The notes under the pieces are model-generated. The model did not search any database. It was not told the origin of the DNA and worked only from the letters and a program-made list of their open reading frames with translations. DNA of 64,000 bases from a virus. Lineage: Duplodnaviria > Heunggongvirae > Uroviricota > Caudoviricetes. The stretch lies in the IMG/VR virus record IMGVR_UViG_3300045988_161152. The stretch is one strand, 5' to 3'. Shown piece by piece: positions 3,097-4,953 of this stretch. A program made the translations under genes and the position numbers. The first letter of the stretch is position 1; the number at the start of each line of letters is the position of its first letter.

Positions 3097-3172
3097 GATG
3101 GTGTAGCTCAGCGGTTAGAGCGGTTGACTGTTAATCAACGGGTCGATGGTTCAAATCCATCCACCATCGCCA
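3097..3172 (+). tRNA. tRNA-Asn (anticodon GUU)
   Basis: 76-nt cloverleaf: acceptor GATGGTG/CACCATC, D-arm GCTC..GAGC, anticodon loop CTGTTAA, T-loop TTCAAAT, discriminator G, encoded CCA. Confidence 0.9.
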
Positions 3173-3174
3173 AT

Positions 3175-3250
3175 GCCGGTTTAGCTCAGTTGGTAGAGCG
3201 CCTGCCTTGTAAGCAGGATGTCAGCGGTTCGAGTCCGTTAATCGGCACCA
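3175..3250 (+). tRNA. tRNA-Thr (anticodon UGU)
   Basis: 76-nt cloverleaf: acceptor GCCGGTT/AATCGGC, anticodon stem CCTGC/GCAGG with loop CTTGTAA, T-loop TTCGAGT, encoded CCA; starts 2 nt after tRNA-Asn. Confidence 0.9.
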
Positions 3251-3252
3251 GC

Positions 3253-4046
3253 ACAACAGGTAAGGGTATTTTGCGACGTCGGAGATCGCCGAGCTTGGCA
3301 GAGGGTTCGAATCCCTACGAAGTACCCTTACCGTTGTGATGAATGCGCAGGCTGATGCGCGAAAGACATTGCAGCTATTGCGGAAAAGAGCTGTTCGGCG
3401 GGGCAATTAAACGCCCGTGAGAGTCTGAAATAACCGCAAGCCGGAGATCAGCACCGGTCATCACAACACAACAGGTAAGGGCATTCTCCCTTATGGGGCT
3501 TGGCTTAAATGCATCGAGTGCTCTTACCGTTGTGATGAAGTGCAGCTCTTTGAAGCAACCAGAAGATAAGCATCTGGCTTCACAACATAAACCGCAGGAA
3601 CGACCAATAAACGGTAGTCCGTATGGAGAACACCCCGTTGAGGAAGAGGCCTGGCCGGAACCGTAACCGGCACTACAACGTTGAGAACACTGGCGTAACG
3701 GGGTCATATCCCAATCTACGAATAAATGTTGCGTTGCAGCGTGACAACCAGTGTTCTCAACATTGTGGTGAATGCACAGGCTGATGTGCCGCAACTACAG
3801 TAGTGCGCGCTTTGCGGGGCTTGCTACAACCCTGTGTCGGAGTTCAGCACCGACCATCACAGTTTGATTCTCTGGCATGAGCATAACGCTGAAATAAGTC
3901 CAGTCTGGTGCGGCCCGATCACCCGCCGTTAGCTCCACGAAACGGAGCACGTAACAGGTAAGAGCATTCTCCTGTAACGGGTTCATATCCCAATCTACAG
4001 GTCCACCAGGAATGCTCTTTCCGTTGCGGTGAATGCGGCTAAGCGC
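3253..4046 (+). repeat. Array of four structured long-stem hairpin units (candidate stable or processed small RNAs) between tRNA-Thr and tciA
   Basis: Units at 3253-3338, 3468-3534, 3675-3768 and 3953-4027 share arms beginning ACAACAGGTAAG and ending CTTACCGTTGTGATGAA with compensatory or G-U-compatible changes; units 1, 3 and 4 are followed by a small co-varying hairpin; no credible ORF. Confidence 0.45.
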
Positions 4047-4177
4047 ACGCGGGGAAATGGTTATATCTGTCCATTATTTCTCCTTATTTCCCCGTCCATG
4101 GTGGATAACCAGCCAAAGGACACCGGGAAGCACCCGGCACCGCAACCTTATTTCCCAACCAGTAATGAGGTTAATAA

Positions 4178-4603
4178 ATGCTCGGCATTCTCAAAAAGAA
4201 ATTCCGCAAAGCGGCTGGCGGAGTCAAGAAGATGGAAAACCGTGATGCGGTGGAAGCGACTGTCTGGGGCGCATATTCCATTGCATACTCTGACGGCACC
4301 TGCGATGCGAAAGAAATTGCAGTGTTGGAAAAAACCATTGCAGCACTTCCTGCCTTTGCGCCGTTCTCCGGTGAAATTGCCCAGATGAGCGCCAATATTC
4401 GCGCTCAATATGAAGCCTCGCCGCGCCGAGCGAATGCCCAGGCTTTACGTGAACTGGCTGACGTGTCTGGAACTAATGATGCGGTAGATGTTCTGTGCCT
4501 ATGCATTGATATTGCTGACCAGGATGGCATTGGGGCAGAAGAGCAGGAGCAATTGAAGAAAATTGCCCAGGCTCTTCAATTGCCACTGGAACAGTATATC
4601 TGA
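4178..4603 (+). CDS. tciA: TerB-like protein TciA
   Basis: 141-aa ORF with GAGG RBS; position between the tRNA genes and ban as in P1; TerB-like assignment is from recalled P1 annotation. Confidence 0.7.
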   Translation: MLGILKKKFRKAAGGVKKMENRDAVEATVWGAYSIAYSDGTCDAKEIAVLEKTIAALPAFAPFSGEIAQMSANIRAQYEASPRRANAQALRELADVSGTNDAVDVLCLCIDIADQDGIGAEEQEQLKKIAQALQLPLEQYI

Positions 4604-4767
4604 TGGTTATAAAAGCACGTCTAATTCTGGCTTTGGTTTTTCTCGTGCTATCTGTGCTGGTGGATTTCACCAGCACAATCCTGTCGGTTTTATCCGACGG
4701 GGCGTTGGTAGCAGTAGCTGTAACATTGGTATGGCCGATATTAAAAACAGCTTCTAAGGATCAGTGA
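4603..4767 (+). CDS. tciB: Small membrane protein TciB
   Basis: 54-aa ORF, ATG overlaps tciA stop (TGATG); hydrophobic (LILALVFLVLSVLV); below the 60-aa cutoff of the ORF track. Confidence 0.55.
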   Translation: MVIKARLILALVFLVLSVLVDFTSTILSVLSDGALVAVAVTLVWPILKTASKDQ

Positions 4768-4874
4768 TGGGCTTCTGGGATTTTGCTGACAAGCATCCAA
4801 TTGTTCTCGTTGTCATTGCTGGCATAGTTGTAGGCGGTATTGCTGGCGTCATAGAAGCACTCAGGAAACAGTAA
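4767..4874 (+). CDS. tciC: Small membrane protein TciC
   Basis: 35-aa ORF, ATG overlaps tciB stop; single hydrophobic helix (IVLVVIAGIVVGGIAGVI). Confidence 0.5.
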   Translation: MGFWDFADKHPIVLVVIAGIVVGGIAGVIEALRKQ

Positions 4875-4877
4875 TCC

Positions 4878-4953
4878 GGCCCTTTAGCTCAGTGGTTAGA
4901 GCTGGCGACTCATAATCGCACGGTCACCGGTTCAAGTCCGGTAGGGGCCACCA
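4878..4953 (+). tRNA. tRNA-Ile (anticodon CAU, lysidine-type, ileX-like)
   Basis: 76-nt cloverleaf nearly identical in the anticodon arm to E. coli ileX (GGCGACTCATAATCGC); T-loop TTCAAGT; encoded CCA. Confidence 0.85.

What the first reader, a model, noticed from the sequence alone, without database searches (positions are those of the whole stretch)
3097..4953. Phage tRNA trio (Asn-GUU, Thr-UGU, Ile-CAU) bracketing TerB-like tciA and two micro-membrane proteins
Three canonical 76-nt tRNAs with encoded CCA sit in the same early, C1-controlled transcription unit as ban. The Ile tRNA is the lysidine-dependent CAU type, nearly identical in its anticodon arm to E. coli ileX. Phage tRNAs are now often read as substitutes for host tRNAs cleaved by anticodon nucleases; co-location with a TerB-like protein and two tiny membrane peptides suggests a stress or defence-evasion cassette.
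Basis: partly seen in the sequence, partly recalled or inferred. Interest (0 to 1): 0.45.

Follow-up and report, generated by a model that had tools for sequence, protein, structure and literature searches.

The report
Known P1 phage tRNA–tciABC cassette
This is the already-annotated stretch of phage P1's early "ban" operon that carries three phage tRNA genes and a small TerB-like membrane cassette; the one part nobody has catalogued is a 900-base array of structured RNA modules lying between the tRNAs.

Summary
ARAGORN and Rfam call three 76-nt tRNAs with encoded CCA at exactly 3097-3172 (Asn-GUU), 3175-3250 (Thr-UGU) and 4878-4953 (CAU). The CAU tRNA is of the ileX/lysidine type. tciA (TerB family), tciB (DUF3927) and tciC lie at 4178-4874.

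The window is a P1-type phage-plasmid. It is 99.7% identical to JL22 and 100% identical to an E. coli plasmid. GenBank records of P1 and P7 already annotate every element, including the C1 operator at 2414-2441. The finding is therefore already known.

The tRNAs decode AUA and ACA, which are twice as frequent in this phage's ORFs as in E. coli K-12 genes. That favours classical codon supplementation. The defence-evasion reading is only partly supported. P2-OLD is now known to target host tRNA-Thr(UGU), and phage Thr(UGU) tRNAs rescue infection. However, this phage's copy keeps the OLD cleavage motif, all three anticodon loops equal the host's, and TciABC match no defence family.

It is an array of long hairpins alternating with a conserved RNA "clamp" that encloses a hypervariable insert. 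The clamp is widespread in enterobacterial prophages and has no passing Rfam match.

The parts
2414..2441 (.). Bivalent C1 repressor operator (Obanab / Op72ab), overlapping the Pban promoters (about 2398-2443)
   Evidence: The sequence ATTGCTCTAATAAATTT and its inverted partner are present. They map onto the protein_bind and promoter features of P1 AF234172 and P7.
2444..2631 (+). Operon leader RNA. It includes the region P1 annotates as 'dicF-like' and ends in the only + strand intrinsic-terminator-like site of the region (stem 2604-2623 followed by T8).
   Evidence: Terminator scan; P1 misc_feature; no Rfam DicF hit at E<=5.
2812..2894 (+). H0 long hairpin
   Evidence: Fold z-score -4.7. It shares the 16-nt repeat GCACAACAGGTAAGGG with 3251.
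3097..3172 (+). tRNA-Asn (GUU), 76 nt, CCA encoded
   Evidence: ARAGORN; Rfam 74.5 bits. It is 50/77 identical to E. coli asnT, with an identical anticodon loop and G73 kept.
3175..3250 (+). tRNA-Thr (UGU), 76 nt, CCA encoded
   Evidence: ARAGORN; Rfam 72.9 bits; 62/76 identical to E. coli thrU.
3252..3338 (+). H1 long hairpin with an internal T-loop-like GGGTTCGAATCCC
   Evidence: Fold z-score -5.2; module map.
3336..3464 (+). U1: canonical 'clamp' RNA module, 129 nt (GTGATGAATGCGCAGGCTGATGCGC ... CCGGAGATCAGCACCGGTCATCAC). It is absent from reference P1.
   Evidence: It is 96-98% identical in IME207, mEp460, Stx2 phages and about 1000 E. coli chromosomes.
3467..3534 (+). H2 long hairpin. Its 3' arm carries TGCTCTTAC, which resembles boxA. 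It is absent from reference P1.
   Evidence: Fold z-score -6.1.
3532..3584 (+). U2: short, degenerate clamp-like module
   Evidence: Repeat families D2 and D4; module map. Its fold is not significant.
3671..3770 (+). H3 long hairpin (23-nt arms)
   Evidence: Inverted repeat I1; fold z-score -7.1.
3765..3860 (+). U3: clamp RNA module, 96 nt
3950..4028 (+). H4 long hairpin. Its 3' arm carries TGCTCTTT, which resembles the boxA core.
   Evidence: Fold z-score -6.0.
4026..4143 (+). U4: STnc100-like clamp module directly upstream of tciA
   Evidence: Rfam RF02076 scores 39.2 bits, E=2.4e-6, below the gathering score of 47. The same sub-threshold hit sits at this position in P7, D6, RCS47 and Ro157c2YLVW. 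Fold z-score -3.9.
4178..4603 (+). tciA, a 141-aa TerB-family protein
   Evidence: Pfam TerB 28.4 bits; 217 homologues, mostly named TerB family; AF2 pLDDT 86.5; best PDB match 2H5N, prob 1.0, TM 0.50-0.59.
4603..4767 (+). tciB, 54 aa, DUF3927, hydrophobic. Its start overlaps the tciA stop codon.
   Evidence: Pfam 106 bits; sequence.
4767..4874 (+). tciC, 35 aa, with a single hydrophobic helix. Its start overlaps the tciB stop codon.
   Evidence: phrog_23152 only; P1 annotation.
4878..4953 (+). tRNA-Ile2 (CAU; reads AUA after lysidine modification), 76 nt, CCA encoded
   Evidence: named tRNA-Ile by PGAP and trnI in P1.
4954..5233 (+). Spacer before ban. Its first ~150 nt (S5a) are shared with pL-leader regions of Stx2-type phages, and with a site upstream of a tRNA-Arg in TL-2011b.
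   Evidence: It shows no excess folding energy.
5240..6604 (+). ban (DnaB-type helicase), the distal gene of the operon
   Evidence: ORF; P1 annotation.
3375..3986 (-). 'plp' and 'upl' ORFs of the P1 annotation. Here they are one minus-strand frame split by TAG at 3795-3797. They are probably not genes.
   Evidence: No Pfam hit. The ORF ends move with RNA-module swaps, and the match is split across two frames in Ro157c2YLVW. In the P1 record, plp overlaps tRNA-Thr. Clamp modules have no conserved reading frame.

Best explanation
The interval is the tRNA/tci segment of the C1-repressed early 'ban' operon of a P1-type phage-plasmid.

When C1 repression is lifted, transcription from Pban has to pass a leader terminator. 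It then runs through a long, mostly untranslated stretch that holds tRNA-Asn, tRNA-Thr, an array of structured RNA modules, the translationally coupled tciA-tciB-tciC genes, tRNA-Ile2 and finally ban.

The tRNAs are ordinary elongator tRNAs. They are presumably matured by host RNase P and 3' trimming, and charged by host synthetases. The Ile tRNA needs host TilS.

Their main role is to top up decoders that are scarce in E. coli. AUA is read only by the minor tRNA-Ile2, and ACA only by the single-copy thrU. The phage uses both codons twice as often as the host. As a side benefit, the tRNAs are spare copies if the host's are depleted.

tciABC is an exchangeable accessory cassette: a TerB-like soluble protein plus two small membrane peptides. 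It is non-essential and its function is unknown. It sits in a cargo slot that other P1-like elements fill with an SPFH protein.

Shown here: gene identities, gene order, the operator, the codon bias, and cargo and module variability. Inferred: co-transcription through the terminator, processing, and the physiological role.
For: Identity:
- The region is 99.7% identical to JL22 and 99.5% to P1, and 100% to plasmid NZ_CP063334.1.
- The P1 and P7 records annotate the same order, with the C1 operator controlling the tRNAs and ban.

tRNAs:
- All three are called by ARAGORN and Rfam.
- The CAU tRNA is 89% identical to ileX and keeps C4:G69 and C5:G68.

Codon usage (48 window ORFs with 16.5k codons against 25 K-12 CDS with 7.7k codons):
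- ATA is 11.6 versus 5.7 per 1000.
- ACA is 13.4 versus 6.6 per 1000.
- TCA is 2.1-fold enriched, matching the extra tRNA-Ser(UGA) of P7 and D6.
- AAT is 1.4-fold and AAC 1.2-fold enriched.

Other points:
- thrU is the sole UGU tRNA of MG1655 (PMC12445682).
- All features lie on the + strand, and no terminator-like site lies downstream of 2631.
- tciA, tciB and tciC have overlapping stop and start codons.
- trnT, trnI, tciABC and ban are non-essential by CRISPRi (PMC10695390).
- TciA peptides were detected in lysate-derived virion preparations, so the gene is expressed (PMC9024508).
- The cargo is swapped between TerB and SPFH.
- From memory, not tested: the same anticodon choices (Thr-UGU, Ile-CAU, Ser-UGA, Arg-UCU) occur in the T4 tRNA cluster.
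Against: - Asn codons are only 1.2-1.4-fold enriched, and E. coli has several asn tRNA genes (from memory, not checked here). Supplementation explains tRNA-Asn poorly.
- The most enriched codons, AGG and AGA, have no P1 tRNA.
- The E. coli codon sample is small, and the window ORFs were called mechanically.
- A strong terminator-like hairpin at 2604-2631 lies between Pban and the tRNAs. Co-transcription therefore needs read-through or an unmapped promoter.
- No expression, processing or aminoacylation data were available here.
- The function of TciABC is untested.
Confidence: 0.6

Rival explanations
1. Anti-defence spare parts. The tRNAs exist chiefly to replace host tRNAs destroyed by tRNA-targeting immunity or by toxins. 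Candidates are P2-OLD for Thr-UGU and Asn-GUU, colicin E5-type nucleases for Asn, and Schlafen-type nucleases for Ile-CAU. On this reading tciABC is part of the same counter-defence cassette.
For: - P2-OLD cleaves host tRNA-ThrU first and also cleaves tRNA-Asn(GUU). Only phage tRNA-Thr(UGU) rescues (PMC12445682).
- The P1 tRNA-Asn is only 65% identical to asnT. Its anticodon stem has UUG/CAA where asnT has the CNG pair CGG/CCG.
- The tRNA-Thr allele of the P1-like phage Ro157c2YLVW carries C28U/G42A plus a 27-43 mismatch, the kind of change reported to confer OLD resistance. That phage also adds a tRNA-Tyr, the target class of retron-Eco7 (PMC11555353).
- The tRNA complement and the protein cargo vary between close relatives, as at an arms-race hotspot.
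- RorSlfn5 cleavage signatures include tRNA-Ile(CAU) (PMC13056530).
Against: - All three anticodon loops are identical to the host's.
- This window's tRNA-Thr keeps C28-U29-G30 / C40-A41-G42 and an intact 5-bp stem. Over-expressed host ThrU gave little protection in the OLD study.
- TciA, TciB and TciC have no PADLOC match.
- No experiment links P1 tRNAs to any defence system.
- No paper in the library connects them.
Confidence: 0.25
2. RNA-processing punctuation. The tRNAs serve mainly as RNase P / RNase E entry points. These sites would cut a long untranslated operon RNA into stable pieces, namely the clamp RNAs and the tciABC and ban mRNAs. Decoding would be secondary.
For: - In other phages, tRNAs abut clamp modules, starting within about 10 nt of the module's 3' end: P7 tRNA-Ser, and L069, L104, L043 and L022.
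- Of 124 clamp modules, 24 have a tRNA within 600 nt, and all 24 are on the same strand.
- tRNA-Thr is followed at once by H1, and tRNA-Ile follows tciC by 3 nt.
- From memory: the P1 C4 RNA is matured by RNase P.
Against: - The tRNAs have intact identity elements and encoded CCA ends, which processing signals would not need.
- 96 of 124 clamp modules have no tRNA anywhere in their locus.
- No end-mapping data exist.
Confidence: 0.1
3. Neutral hitch-hiking. The tRNAs and tciABC are mosaic cargo picked up by recombination in a permissive non-coding region, with no selected function in P1.
For: - The genes are non-essential.
- The region is a mosaic of modules shared with unrelated phages.
- The Asn-Thr pair also occurs in the unrelated phage Cyrano.
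Against: - The tRNAs are intact and 97-100% conserved across P1, P7, D6, RCS47 and 167 E. coli genomes, while the surroundings are shuffled.
- The anticodons match codons enriched in the phage.
Confidence: 0.05

Closest known systems
Phage P1 trnA-trnT-plp-upl-tciABC-trnI-ban region (GenBank AF234172/NC_005856; Łobocka et al. 2004 genome paper, which could not be read here)
   Same: The same genes are in the same order, at 99.5% nucleotide identity, with the same C1 operator.
   Different: The window has one extra RNA unit, U1-H2, of about 196 nt. JL22 and RCS47 have it too. On the evidence here, the record's plp and upl CDS are probably not genes.
Nuclease-resistant phage 'rescue' tRNAs: phage tRNA-Thr(UGU) against P2-OLD, tRNA-Tyr against retron-Eco7 PtuAB, tRNA-Lys against PARIS
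   Same: The phage carries a copy of exactly the tRNA species (Thr-UGU) that P2-OLD depletes. Its tRNA-Asn lacks the CNG cleavage motif.
   Different: The window's tRNA-Thr retains the sensitive CUG/CAG stem. No anticodon-loop changes are present. Nothing has been tested for P1.
Phage T4 tRNA cluster (from memory: eight tRNAs including Thr-UGU, Ile-CAU, Ser-UGA and Arg-UCU, plus two small stable RNAs)
   Same: Both choose decoders for A-ending codons rare in E. coli. In both, the tRNAs are co-transcribed with small structured RNAs of unknown function.
   Different: P1 is temperate and the cluster is repressor-controlled. It has only three tRNAs, interleaved with protein genes and clamp RNAs.
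STnc100 (Rfam RF02076) / PasD prophage Hfq-associated sRNAs
   Same: U4 aligns to the core of the STnc100 model (positions 31-147). The shared core has a closing stem, a first hairpin after GGUGAAU and a last hairpin abutting the closing strand. STnc100 is prophage-borne, and tRNA hits were common in the 10-kb flanks of the related PasA and PasC genes (bioRxiv 10.64898/2026.05.13.724894).
   Different: The scores of 38-43 bits fall below the gathering score of 47. U1 and U3 are not detected at all. In P1 the modules are tandem and internal to an operon, not stand-alone terminated sRNAs.
TerB (Pfam PF05099; ter operon protein; structure 2H5N)
   Same: TciA passes the Pfam threshold. The AF2 model is an all-helical bundle whose best PDB match is 2H5N. 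The P7 and D6 alleles match TerB over its full length at 54 bits.
   Different: There are no terC, terD or terZ neighbours. TciA is only 31% identical to the P7 allele. Tellurite or colicin resistance has never been shown for it.
Lambda nut / rrn boxA antitermination sites
   Same: A boxA-core-like YGCTCTTW lies 13-14 nt upstream of the clamp, which begins with a 5-bp hairpin. The modules sit in pL-to-N and Q-to-holin leaders.
   Different: The motif is buried in the H hairpin stem. No boxB-type pentaloop is present. P1 has no N protein. The resemblance is unproven.

Membership tests
tRNA (Rfam RF00005) | Cloverleaf scoring above the gathering threshold, with a 7-nt anticodon loop | tested here: met
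   74.5, 72.9 and 64.7 bits against 29. ARAGORN gives anticodons gtt, tgt and cat at position 34.
tRNA-Ile2 (lysidine-dependent, ileX/ileY type) | CAU anticodon with closer similarity to ileX than to elongator tRNA-Met | tested here: met
   68/76 identical to ileX against 55/77 to metT. The anticodon arm matches ileX at 16 of 17 positions. PGAP names it tRNA-Ile.
tRNA-Ile2 (lysidine-dependent, ileX/ileY type) | TilS acceptor-stem determinants C4:G69 and C5:G68 (recalled from Ikeuchi et al. 2005) | tested here: met
   The acceptor stem GGCCCTT/AGGGGCC keeps both pairs. The determinant list itself is from memory.
tRNA-Ile2 (lysidine-dependent, ileX/ileY type) | C34 actually converted to lysidine, and the tRNA charged with Ile | not testable with these tools
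   This needs mass spectrometry or an aminoacylation assay.
Nuclease-resistant phage rescue tRNA (P2-OLD class) | Same anticodon as the nuclease's primary target (UGU) | tested here: met
Nuclease-resistant phage rescue tRNA (P2-OLD class) | Altered CNG motif and shortened anticodon stem | tested here: not met
   The window's tRNA-Thr has 27-31 CCUGC and 39-43 GCAGG, so CUG and CAG are kept and all 5 bp are intact. The Ro157c2YLVW allele (GUCGC/GCGAA) does show the changes. The P1 tRNA-Asn (GUUGA/UCAAC) has lost CNG.
Nuclease-resistant phage rescue tRNA (P2-OLD class) | Resists cleavage and restores growth or phage yield | not testable with these tools
   This is experimental. The supplementary list of the 245 library tRNAs is not held.
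TerB family (PF05099) | Profile score above the gathering threshold | tested here: met
   28.4 bits against 24.4, covering only residues 11-57. Precomputed PF05099 is recorded on most of the 120 listed homologues.
TerB family (PF05099) | TerB-like helical fold | tested here: inconclusive
   The AF2 model has pLDDT 86.5. The best PDB hit is 2H5N with prob 1.0 but E=0.06 and TM 0.50-0.59. That 2H5N is a TerB-like structure is from memory.
TerB family (PF05099) | Confers tellurite or colicin resistance, or inhibits cell division | not testable with these tools
   The name 'tci' was given by homology only.
Known anti-phage defence or counter-defence proteins (PADLOC-DB) | Match to any defence-system profile | tested here: not met
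   TciA, TciB and TciC have no hit at E<=0.1. The alternative SPFH cargo has none either.
STnc100 sRNA (RF02076) | Covariance-model score at or above the gathering score of 47 | tested here: not met
   U4 scores 39.2 bits. Relatives score 38-43 bits over model positions 31-147 only. U1 and U3 are not hit.
C1-controlled P1 operon | 17-bp C1 operator overlapping a promoter, with downstream genes co-oriented | tested here: met
   The operator lies at 2414-2441. All parts are on the + strand. A terminator-like site at 2604-2631 intervenes.
HK022 put antiterminator RNA | Sequence or structure shared with putL/putR | tested here: not met
   No clamp motif occurs in HK022 positions 24000-32000, taken here to hold the pL/pR region; the record annotates no cI, cro or put feature there.

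The most novel reading that the evidence does not exclude
The roughly 900 nt between tRNA-Thr and tciA (3251-4143), annotated in P1 as the minus-strand genes plp and upl, is not protein-coding. It is a tandem array of composite RNA modules on the + strand.

Each module is a long hairpin (H) followed by a 'clamp' (U). The clamp has a tRNA-like layout:
- a 6-7-bp closing stem;
- a 2-nt linker;
- a first hairpin;
- a hypervariable insert of 11-204 nt;
- a last hairpin stacked on the closing stem;
- complementary loops (GCUGA / UCAGC) that could kiss like a tRNA elbow.

The clamp belongs to a large family with no passing Rfam match. The family is found in enterobacterial phage and prophage operon leaders (downstream of cI, downstream of Q, and in tRNA operons). 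STnc100/PasD would be one divergent branch of it.

The family could be a processing or antitermination scaffold that presents variable RNA segments. tRNA genes appear to be interchangeable cargo in the same slots.
Probability: 0.45. Interest if true: 0.65.

Novelty: already known. Interest (0 to 1): 0.3.

Why it matters
The finding as flagged adds nothing to the P1 annotation of 2004.

It gains some topical value from the 2025 discovery that P2-OLD kills by destroying tRNA-Thr(UGU). P1-like phage-plasmids are common: 167 of 5426 complete E. coli genomes carry this configuration. They carry natural allelic variants of tRNA-Thr(UGU), some with the OLD-sensitive stem and some with a resistant-looking stem, so the idea can be tested directly.

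The larger potential value is the RNA array. If the clamp family is real, it adds to the STnc100/PasD group of prophage sRNAs. It would also correct a 20-year-old mis-annotation (plp/upl). And it would point to a modular system by which temperate phages exchange tRNAs and structured RNAs in operon leaders.

Tried and rejected
- **Rfam on the region.** Gathering and E<=5 searches gave only the three tRNAs and a sub-threshold STnc100 hit. The remaining hits (mir-142, Plastid-ycf2, tmRNA_permuted, YrlA) overlap tRNAs or hairpins and look like chance. There is no DicF hit for the 'dicF-like' leader.
- **Rfam on six IMG/VR loci with canonical clamps.** Only tRNAs were found.
- **HK022 put RNA as the identity of the clamp.** No motif occurs in HK022 positions 24000-32000.
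- **Base-pairing targets of the U/H inserts within the 64-kb window.** Nothing exceeded chance except the H3/H4 paralogy.
- **Defence and structure searches on TciA, TciB and TciC.** PADLOC and NCBIfam gave no useful hit. A PDB sequence search with TciA gave only weak EF-hand-like matches at E>0.1.
- **Literature.** The P1 genome paper (PMC523184) is not held. 'ban operon' returns no paper. The clamp motif is printed in no held paper or supplement. The OLD paper's tRNA library list is not held.
- **Covariance model for the clamp.** I did not build one, because the 11-204-nt variable insert cannot be modelled well. I used a structure-defined regex scan with a shuffled control instead. Two first attempts at that scan had register bugs and were discarded.
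- **plp/upl as real genes.** A minus-strand ORF of 123-143 aa persists in all relatives, which kept this open. I rejected it as the likelier reading for two reasons. ORF ends follow module swaps. Clamp modules elsewhere have lengths not in multiples of three and no conserved frame.

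
Full report

Yes. ARAGORN finds exactly three tRNA genes in the 64-kb window, at the coordinates given: Asn(GTT) 3097-3172, Thr(TGT) 3175-3250 and a CAT-anticodon tRNA at 4878-4953. Rfam's tRNA model scores them 74.5, 72.9 and 64.7 bits against a threshold of 29. Each is 76 nt and ends in an encoded CCA.

ARAGORN labels the third tRNA Met, but it is the Ile2 type.
- It is 68/76 identical to E. coli K-12 ileX and only 55/77 identical to metT.
- Its anticodon arm differs from ileX at one of 17 positions.
- It keeps the C4:G69 and C5:G68 pairs, which I recall as the TilS determinants.
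- PGAP names it tRNA-Ile in RefSeq plasmids.

Between the tRNAs lie three protein genes.
- tciA spans 4178-4603. It matches Pfam TerB at 28.4 bits against a cut-off of 24.4.
- tciB spans 4603-4767. It matches DUF3927 at 106 bits.
- tciC spans 4767-4874 and is a 35-aa hydrophobic peptide.
- Their stop and start codons overlap.

**2. What is the source, and is this known?**

The region 2400-5300 is 99.7% identical to the P1-like phage-plasmid JL22. It is 99.5% identical to phage P1 over 94% of its length. The interval 3097-4953 is 100% identical to part of E. coli plasmid NZ_CP063334.1.

The GenBank record of P1 annotates, in this order: dmt, the Pban promoters with the bivalent C1 operator Obanab, a 'dicF-like region', tRNA-Asn, tRNA-Thr, plp and upl (opposite strand), tciA, tciB, tciC, trnI, ban and dbn. 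The P7 record states that the operator controls the tRNAs and ban. In the window the operator is at 2414-2441.

A genome-wide CRISPRi screen scored trnT, plp, upl, tciA, tciB, tciC, trnI and ban as non-essential on a laboratory host (PMC10695390).

**3. What do the tRNAs most likely do?**

*Similarity to host tRNAs.* I compared them with the host's genes, fetched from MG1655. The P1 Thr tRNA is 82% identical to thrU. The Ile tRNA is 89% identical to ileX. The Asn tRNA is only 65% identical to asnT and has a completely different acceptor stem. The three anticodon loops are identical to the host's, and the Asn tRNA also keeps the host's discriminator G73.

*Codon usage.* I compared 48 long ORFs of the window with 25 annotated K-12 genes.
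- ATA is 2.0-fold enriched (11.6 against 5.7 per 1000).
- ACA is 2.0-fold enriched (13.4 against 6.6 per 1000).
- TCA is 2.1-fold enriched. P7 and D6 carry an extra tRNA-Ser(UGA), which is unannotated in P7.
- AAT and AAC are only 1.4- and 1.2-fold enriched.
- AGG and AGA are the most enriched codons but have no P1 tRNA. tRNA-Arg(UCU) does occur in some P1-like plasmids.

ACA is read in MG1655 by the single thrU product (PMC12445682). From memory, AUA is read only by the minor Ile2 species. Classical codon supplementation therefore fits Ile and Thr well, and Asn poorly.

**4. The defence-evasion reading.**

The literature now gives it one concrete anchor. P2-OLD kills by amputating the anticodon arm of tRNAs. 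Host tRNA-ThrU(UGU) is its primary target and tRNA-Asn(GUU) a slower one. Only phage tRNA-Thr(UGU) species rescue. Resistance needs an altered CNG motif (C28-G30 and C40-G42) together with a shortened anticodon stem.

I applied that rule to the sequences.
- The window's tRNA-Thr (27-31 CCUGC, 39-43 GCAGG) keeps CUG and CAG and a full 5-bp stem. It is predicted to be sensitive.
- The allele in the P1-like phage Ro157c2YLVW (GUCGC/GCGAA) has C28U/G42A and a G27-A43 mismatch, the kind of change reported to confer resistance. That phage also adds a tRNA-Tyr(GUA).
- The window's tRNA-Asn has UUG/CAA where asnT has CGG/CCG, so it has lost the motif.

TciA, TciB and TciC match nothing in PADLOC. I therefore rate the anti-defence idea as plausible but secondary for this particular phage, at 0.25. 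It is directly testable with natural alleles.

**5. The protein cargo.**

- TciA has 217 close homologues, mostly on contigs of about 100 kb or of prophage size. Most of those that carry a name are called TerB family.
- An AlphaFold model built on 25 sequences is confident (pLDDT 86.5). It has six helices.
- Its best PDB match is 2H5N, with prob 1.0, TM 0.50-0.59 and E=0.06. I recall 2H5N as a TerB-like structure.
- TciA is only 31% identical to the 'TerB' allele of P7. That allele matches Pfam TerB over its full length.
- In RCS47, Ro157c2YLVW and many E. coli plasmids, the whole tciABC block is replaced by an SPFH/Band-7 protein, preceded in Ro157c2YLVW by an annotated 78-aa ORF.

The stretch between the U4 RNA module and tRNA-Ile is thus an exchangeable cargo slot for small membrane-associated proteins. 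Their function is unknown.

**6.

tRNA-Thr and tciA are separated by about 930 nt. Folded as + strand RNA, 3245-4180 has a z-score of -8.8 against shuffles. The minus strand gives -5.2.

The region is built of two alternating repeated units.
- **H units** are long hairpins: H1 3252-3338, H2 3467-3534, H3 3671-3770 and H4 3950-4028, plus H0 at 2812-2894. Their z-scores range from -4.7 to -7.1.
- **U units** are U1 3336-3464, U3 3765-3860 and U4 4026-4143, plus a degenerate U2.

A blastn module map across relatives shows that these units are the currency of variation.
- Reference P1 lacks exactly U1-H2.
- P7 and D6 replace U3-S4-H4 (S4 is my label for the 3863-3949 spacer between U3 and H4) with a different U unit followed directly by tRNA-Ser.
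- Ro157c2YLVW inserts tRNA-Tyr and other sequence.

Single modules also turn up at 84-98% identity in unrelated phages.
- U1 lies upstream of unannotated tRNA-Ser and tRNA-Arg genes in the Klebsiella siphovirus IME207.
- U1 lies downstream of cI in mEp460 and Stx2 phages.
- U1 occurs alone, unannotated, at most of the 1049 matching places on E. coli chromosomes.

**7. The clamp family.**

The 122 segments fall into 65 clusters, because the interior differs completely while both ends are conserved. The pattern is:

GTGGTGAATGCGCAGGCTGATGCGC – insert of 11-204 nt (median 66) – CCGGAGATCAGCACCGGCCACCAC

95 of 99 unique copies have the 3' half.

*Structure.* A scan defined by structure alone finds 113 modules against 1 in shuffled sequence. 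These fall into 44 clamp types.

On an in-register alignment of 31 types, six base pairs change on both sides (0 of 500 shuffles reach this). Examples are GTGGTG/CACCAC, GTGATG/CATCAC and TGGATG/CATCCA; GCGCA/TGCGC and GCACA/TGTGC; CCGG/CCGG, TCGG/CCGA, CAGG/CCTG and CTGG/CCAG. The proposed loop-loop helix GCUGA/UCAGC is paired in every sequence and varies only to G-U. In P7 it becomes ACUGA/UCAGU.

One caveat applies. The sample was anchored on one sequence motif, and three of the four helices were required by the scan. Only the loop-loop result is unforced.

*Not protein-coding.* Module lengths are not multiples of three (36/28/16 for remainders 1/2/0). No reading frame is open in more than 25 of 80 modules.

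*Not in Rfam or the literature searched.* Rfam has no family for the canonical clamp. Only the U4 subtype gives a sub-threshold STnc100 match of 38-43 bits against 47. STnc100 and PasD are prophage Hfq-associated sRNAs of unknown function, recently proposed to share ancestry (bioRxiv 10.64898/2026.05.13.724894). No held paper prints the motif.

**8. Context and possible function of the clamps.**

- 24 of 124 modules have a tRNA within 600 nt, always on the same strand. In nine cases the tRNA begins 103-255 nt after the module's start; in several of these that is within about 10 nt of its 3' end.
- 28 of 95 are followed within 170 nt by a terminator-like hairpin.
- In lambdoid prophages they lie downstream of a CI-like repressor and just upstream of an N-like or phrog_204 gene. 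Alternatively they lie between a Q-like antiterminator and the holin. These are the leaders of the main early and late operons.
- About half are preceded by an H-type hairpin.
- 28 of 90 have a boxA-core-like YGCTCTTW exactly 13-14 nt upstream, where 0.76 would be expected. In the window this motif occurs before U2 and before U4.

The layout parallels a tRNA with its anticodon domain replaced: a 7-bp stem, a 2-nt linker, a first hairpin, variable sequence, a last hairpin stacked on the closing stem, and complementary loops. That parallel is my inference. The tRNA covariance model does not detect these modules.

Candidate roles are processing scaffolds, antitermination or anti-Rho elements for long untranslated leaders, or carriers of variable antisense segments. 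None could be tested here. They are not HK022 put RNA. Their inserts show no significant complementarity to the rest of the window.

**9. plp and upl.**

The two ORFs are a single minus-strand frame split by a TAG at 3795-3797.
- They have no Pfam match.
- In the P1 record, plp overlaps tRNA-Thr.
- Their ends move with module swaps, and in Ro157c2YLVW the match is split across two frames.
- A minus-strand ORF of 123-143 aa does persist in all relatives. I attribute this to the stop-poor complement of the conserved RNA motifs: 45 of 80 modules have an open frame on the minus strand against 16 on the plus strand.

I consider them probably spurious, but this needs expression data.

**10. A caveat on the transcription unit.**

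The only + strand terminator-like site in 2300-5400 is a strong one (8-bp stem 2604-2623 followed by T8), about 160-190 nt downstream of Pban. The first product of the operon is therefore probably a terminated leader RNA of about 180 nt. The tRNAs, tciABC and ban need read-through or antitermination. I recall older genetics placing ban under Op72 control. The papers were not available here.

**11. Verdict.**

Interest in the finding as flagged is low to moderate (0.3). The clamp-RNA array inside the interval is the part that deserves follow-up. I put the probability that it is a real, functionally selected and so far undescribed RNA family at 0.45.

Noticed in passing
window 3251-4143 (also 2812-2894): A tandem array of long hairpins (H0-H4) alternates with 'clamp' RNA modules (U1-U4). 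The clamp has conserved 5' and 3' ends and a hypervariable insert. It occurs in at least 120 IMG/VR contigs, about 100 GenBank phages and about 1000 E. coli chromosomes. It has no Rfam family.
   Followed up: yes
window 2444-2631: The operon leader ends in a strong intrinsic-terminator-like hairpin (2604-2623 followed by T8) only about 160-190 nt after Pban. This implies a short terminated leader RNA and a need for read-through to reach the tRNAs and ban. P1 calls part of it 'dicF-like', but Rfam DicF does not match.
   Followed up: partly
window 3519 and 4013; IMG/VR loci L017-L136: A boxA-core-like motif YGCTCTTW (TGCTCTTAC, TGCTCTTT) sits 13-14 nt upstream of clamp modules in 28 of 90 contexts, where about 0.8 would be expected. 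It lies inside the 3' arm of the H hairpin.
   Followed up: partly
window 4954-5100; L014 2700-2830; L008 2501-2663: The spacer after tRNA-Ile (S5a) is homologous to a segment just downstream of cI in Stx2a_WGPS2, about 300 nt upstream of a U1 copy. It is also homologous to a segment just upstream of an unannotated tRNA-Arg(UCU) in phage TL-2011b.
   Followed up: partly
L003 (P7) 2500-2586; L007 (IME207) 2748-2917; L008 (TL-2011b) 2742-2818: tRNA genes are missing from the deposited annotations: tRNA-Ser(UGA) in P7, tRNA-Ser(GCU) and tRNA-Arg(UCU) in IME207, and tRNA-Arg(UCU) in TL-2011b.
   Followed up: yes
L005 (Ro157c2YLVW) 1897-2143: This P1-like phage has diverged Asn (88% identical) and Thr (86% identical) alleles, with an extra tRNA-Tyr(GUA) between them. 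Its Thr allele carries C28U/G42A and a 27-43 mismatch, the changes reported to make phage tRNA-Thr resistant to P2-OLD.
   Followed up: partly
L006 (RCS47) 3197-4024; L005 3004-4048; E. coli plasmids: The tciABC block is replaced by an SPFH/Band-7 protein (preceded in Ro157c2YLVW by a 78-aa ORF) in many P1-like elements. In P7 and D6, tciA is replaced by a 31%-identical TerB allele. The slot between U4 and tRNA-Ile is a cargo hotspot.
   Followed up: partly
window 3375-3986 (minus strand): The annotated plp and upl ORFs are one reading frame interrupted by a TAG at 3795-3797. In the P1 record, plp overlaps tRNA-Thr. They are probably artefacts of the stop-poor complement of the RNA modules.
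   Followed up: yes
L009 (phage Cyrano) 2505-2752: The Asn-Thr tRNA pair, followed by tRNA-Ser(UGA), occurs at 88-96% identity in an unrelated 108-kb phage next to an integrase. This suggests the tRNA trio moves as a unit.
   Followed up: no
window 159-2423: Directly upstream lies the 754-aa bifunctional Dmt methyltransferase ORF. Its 3' end overlaps the start of the Pban promoter and operator region.
   Followed up: no
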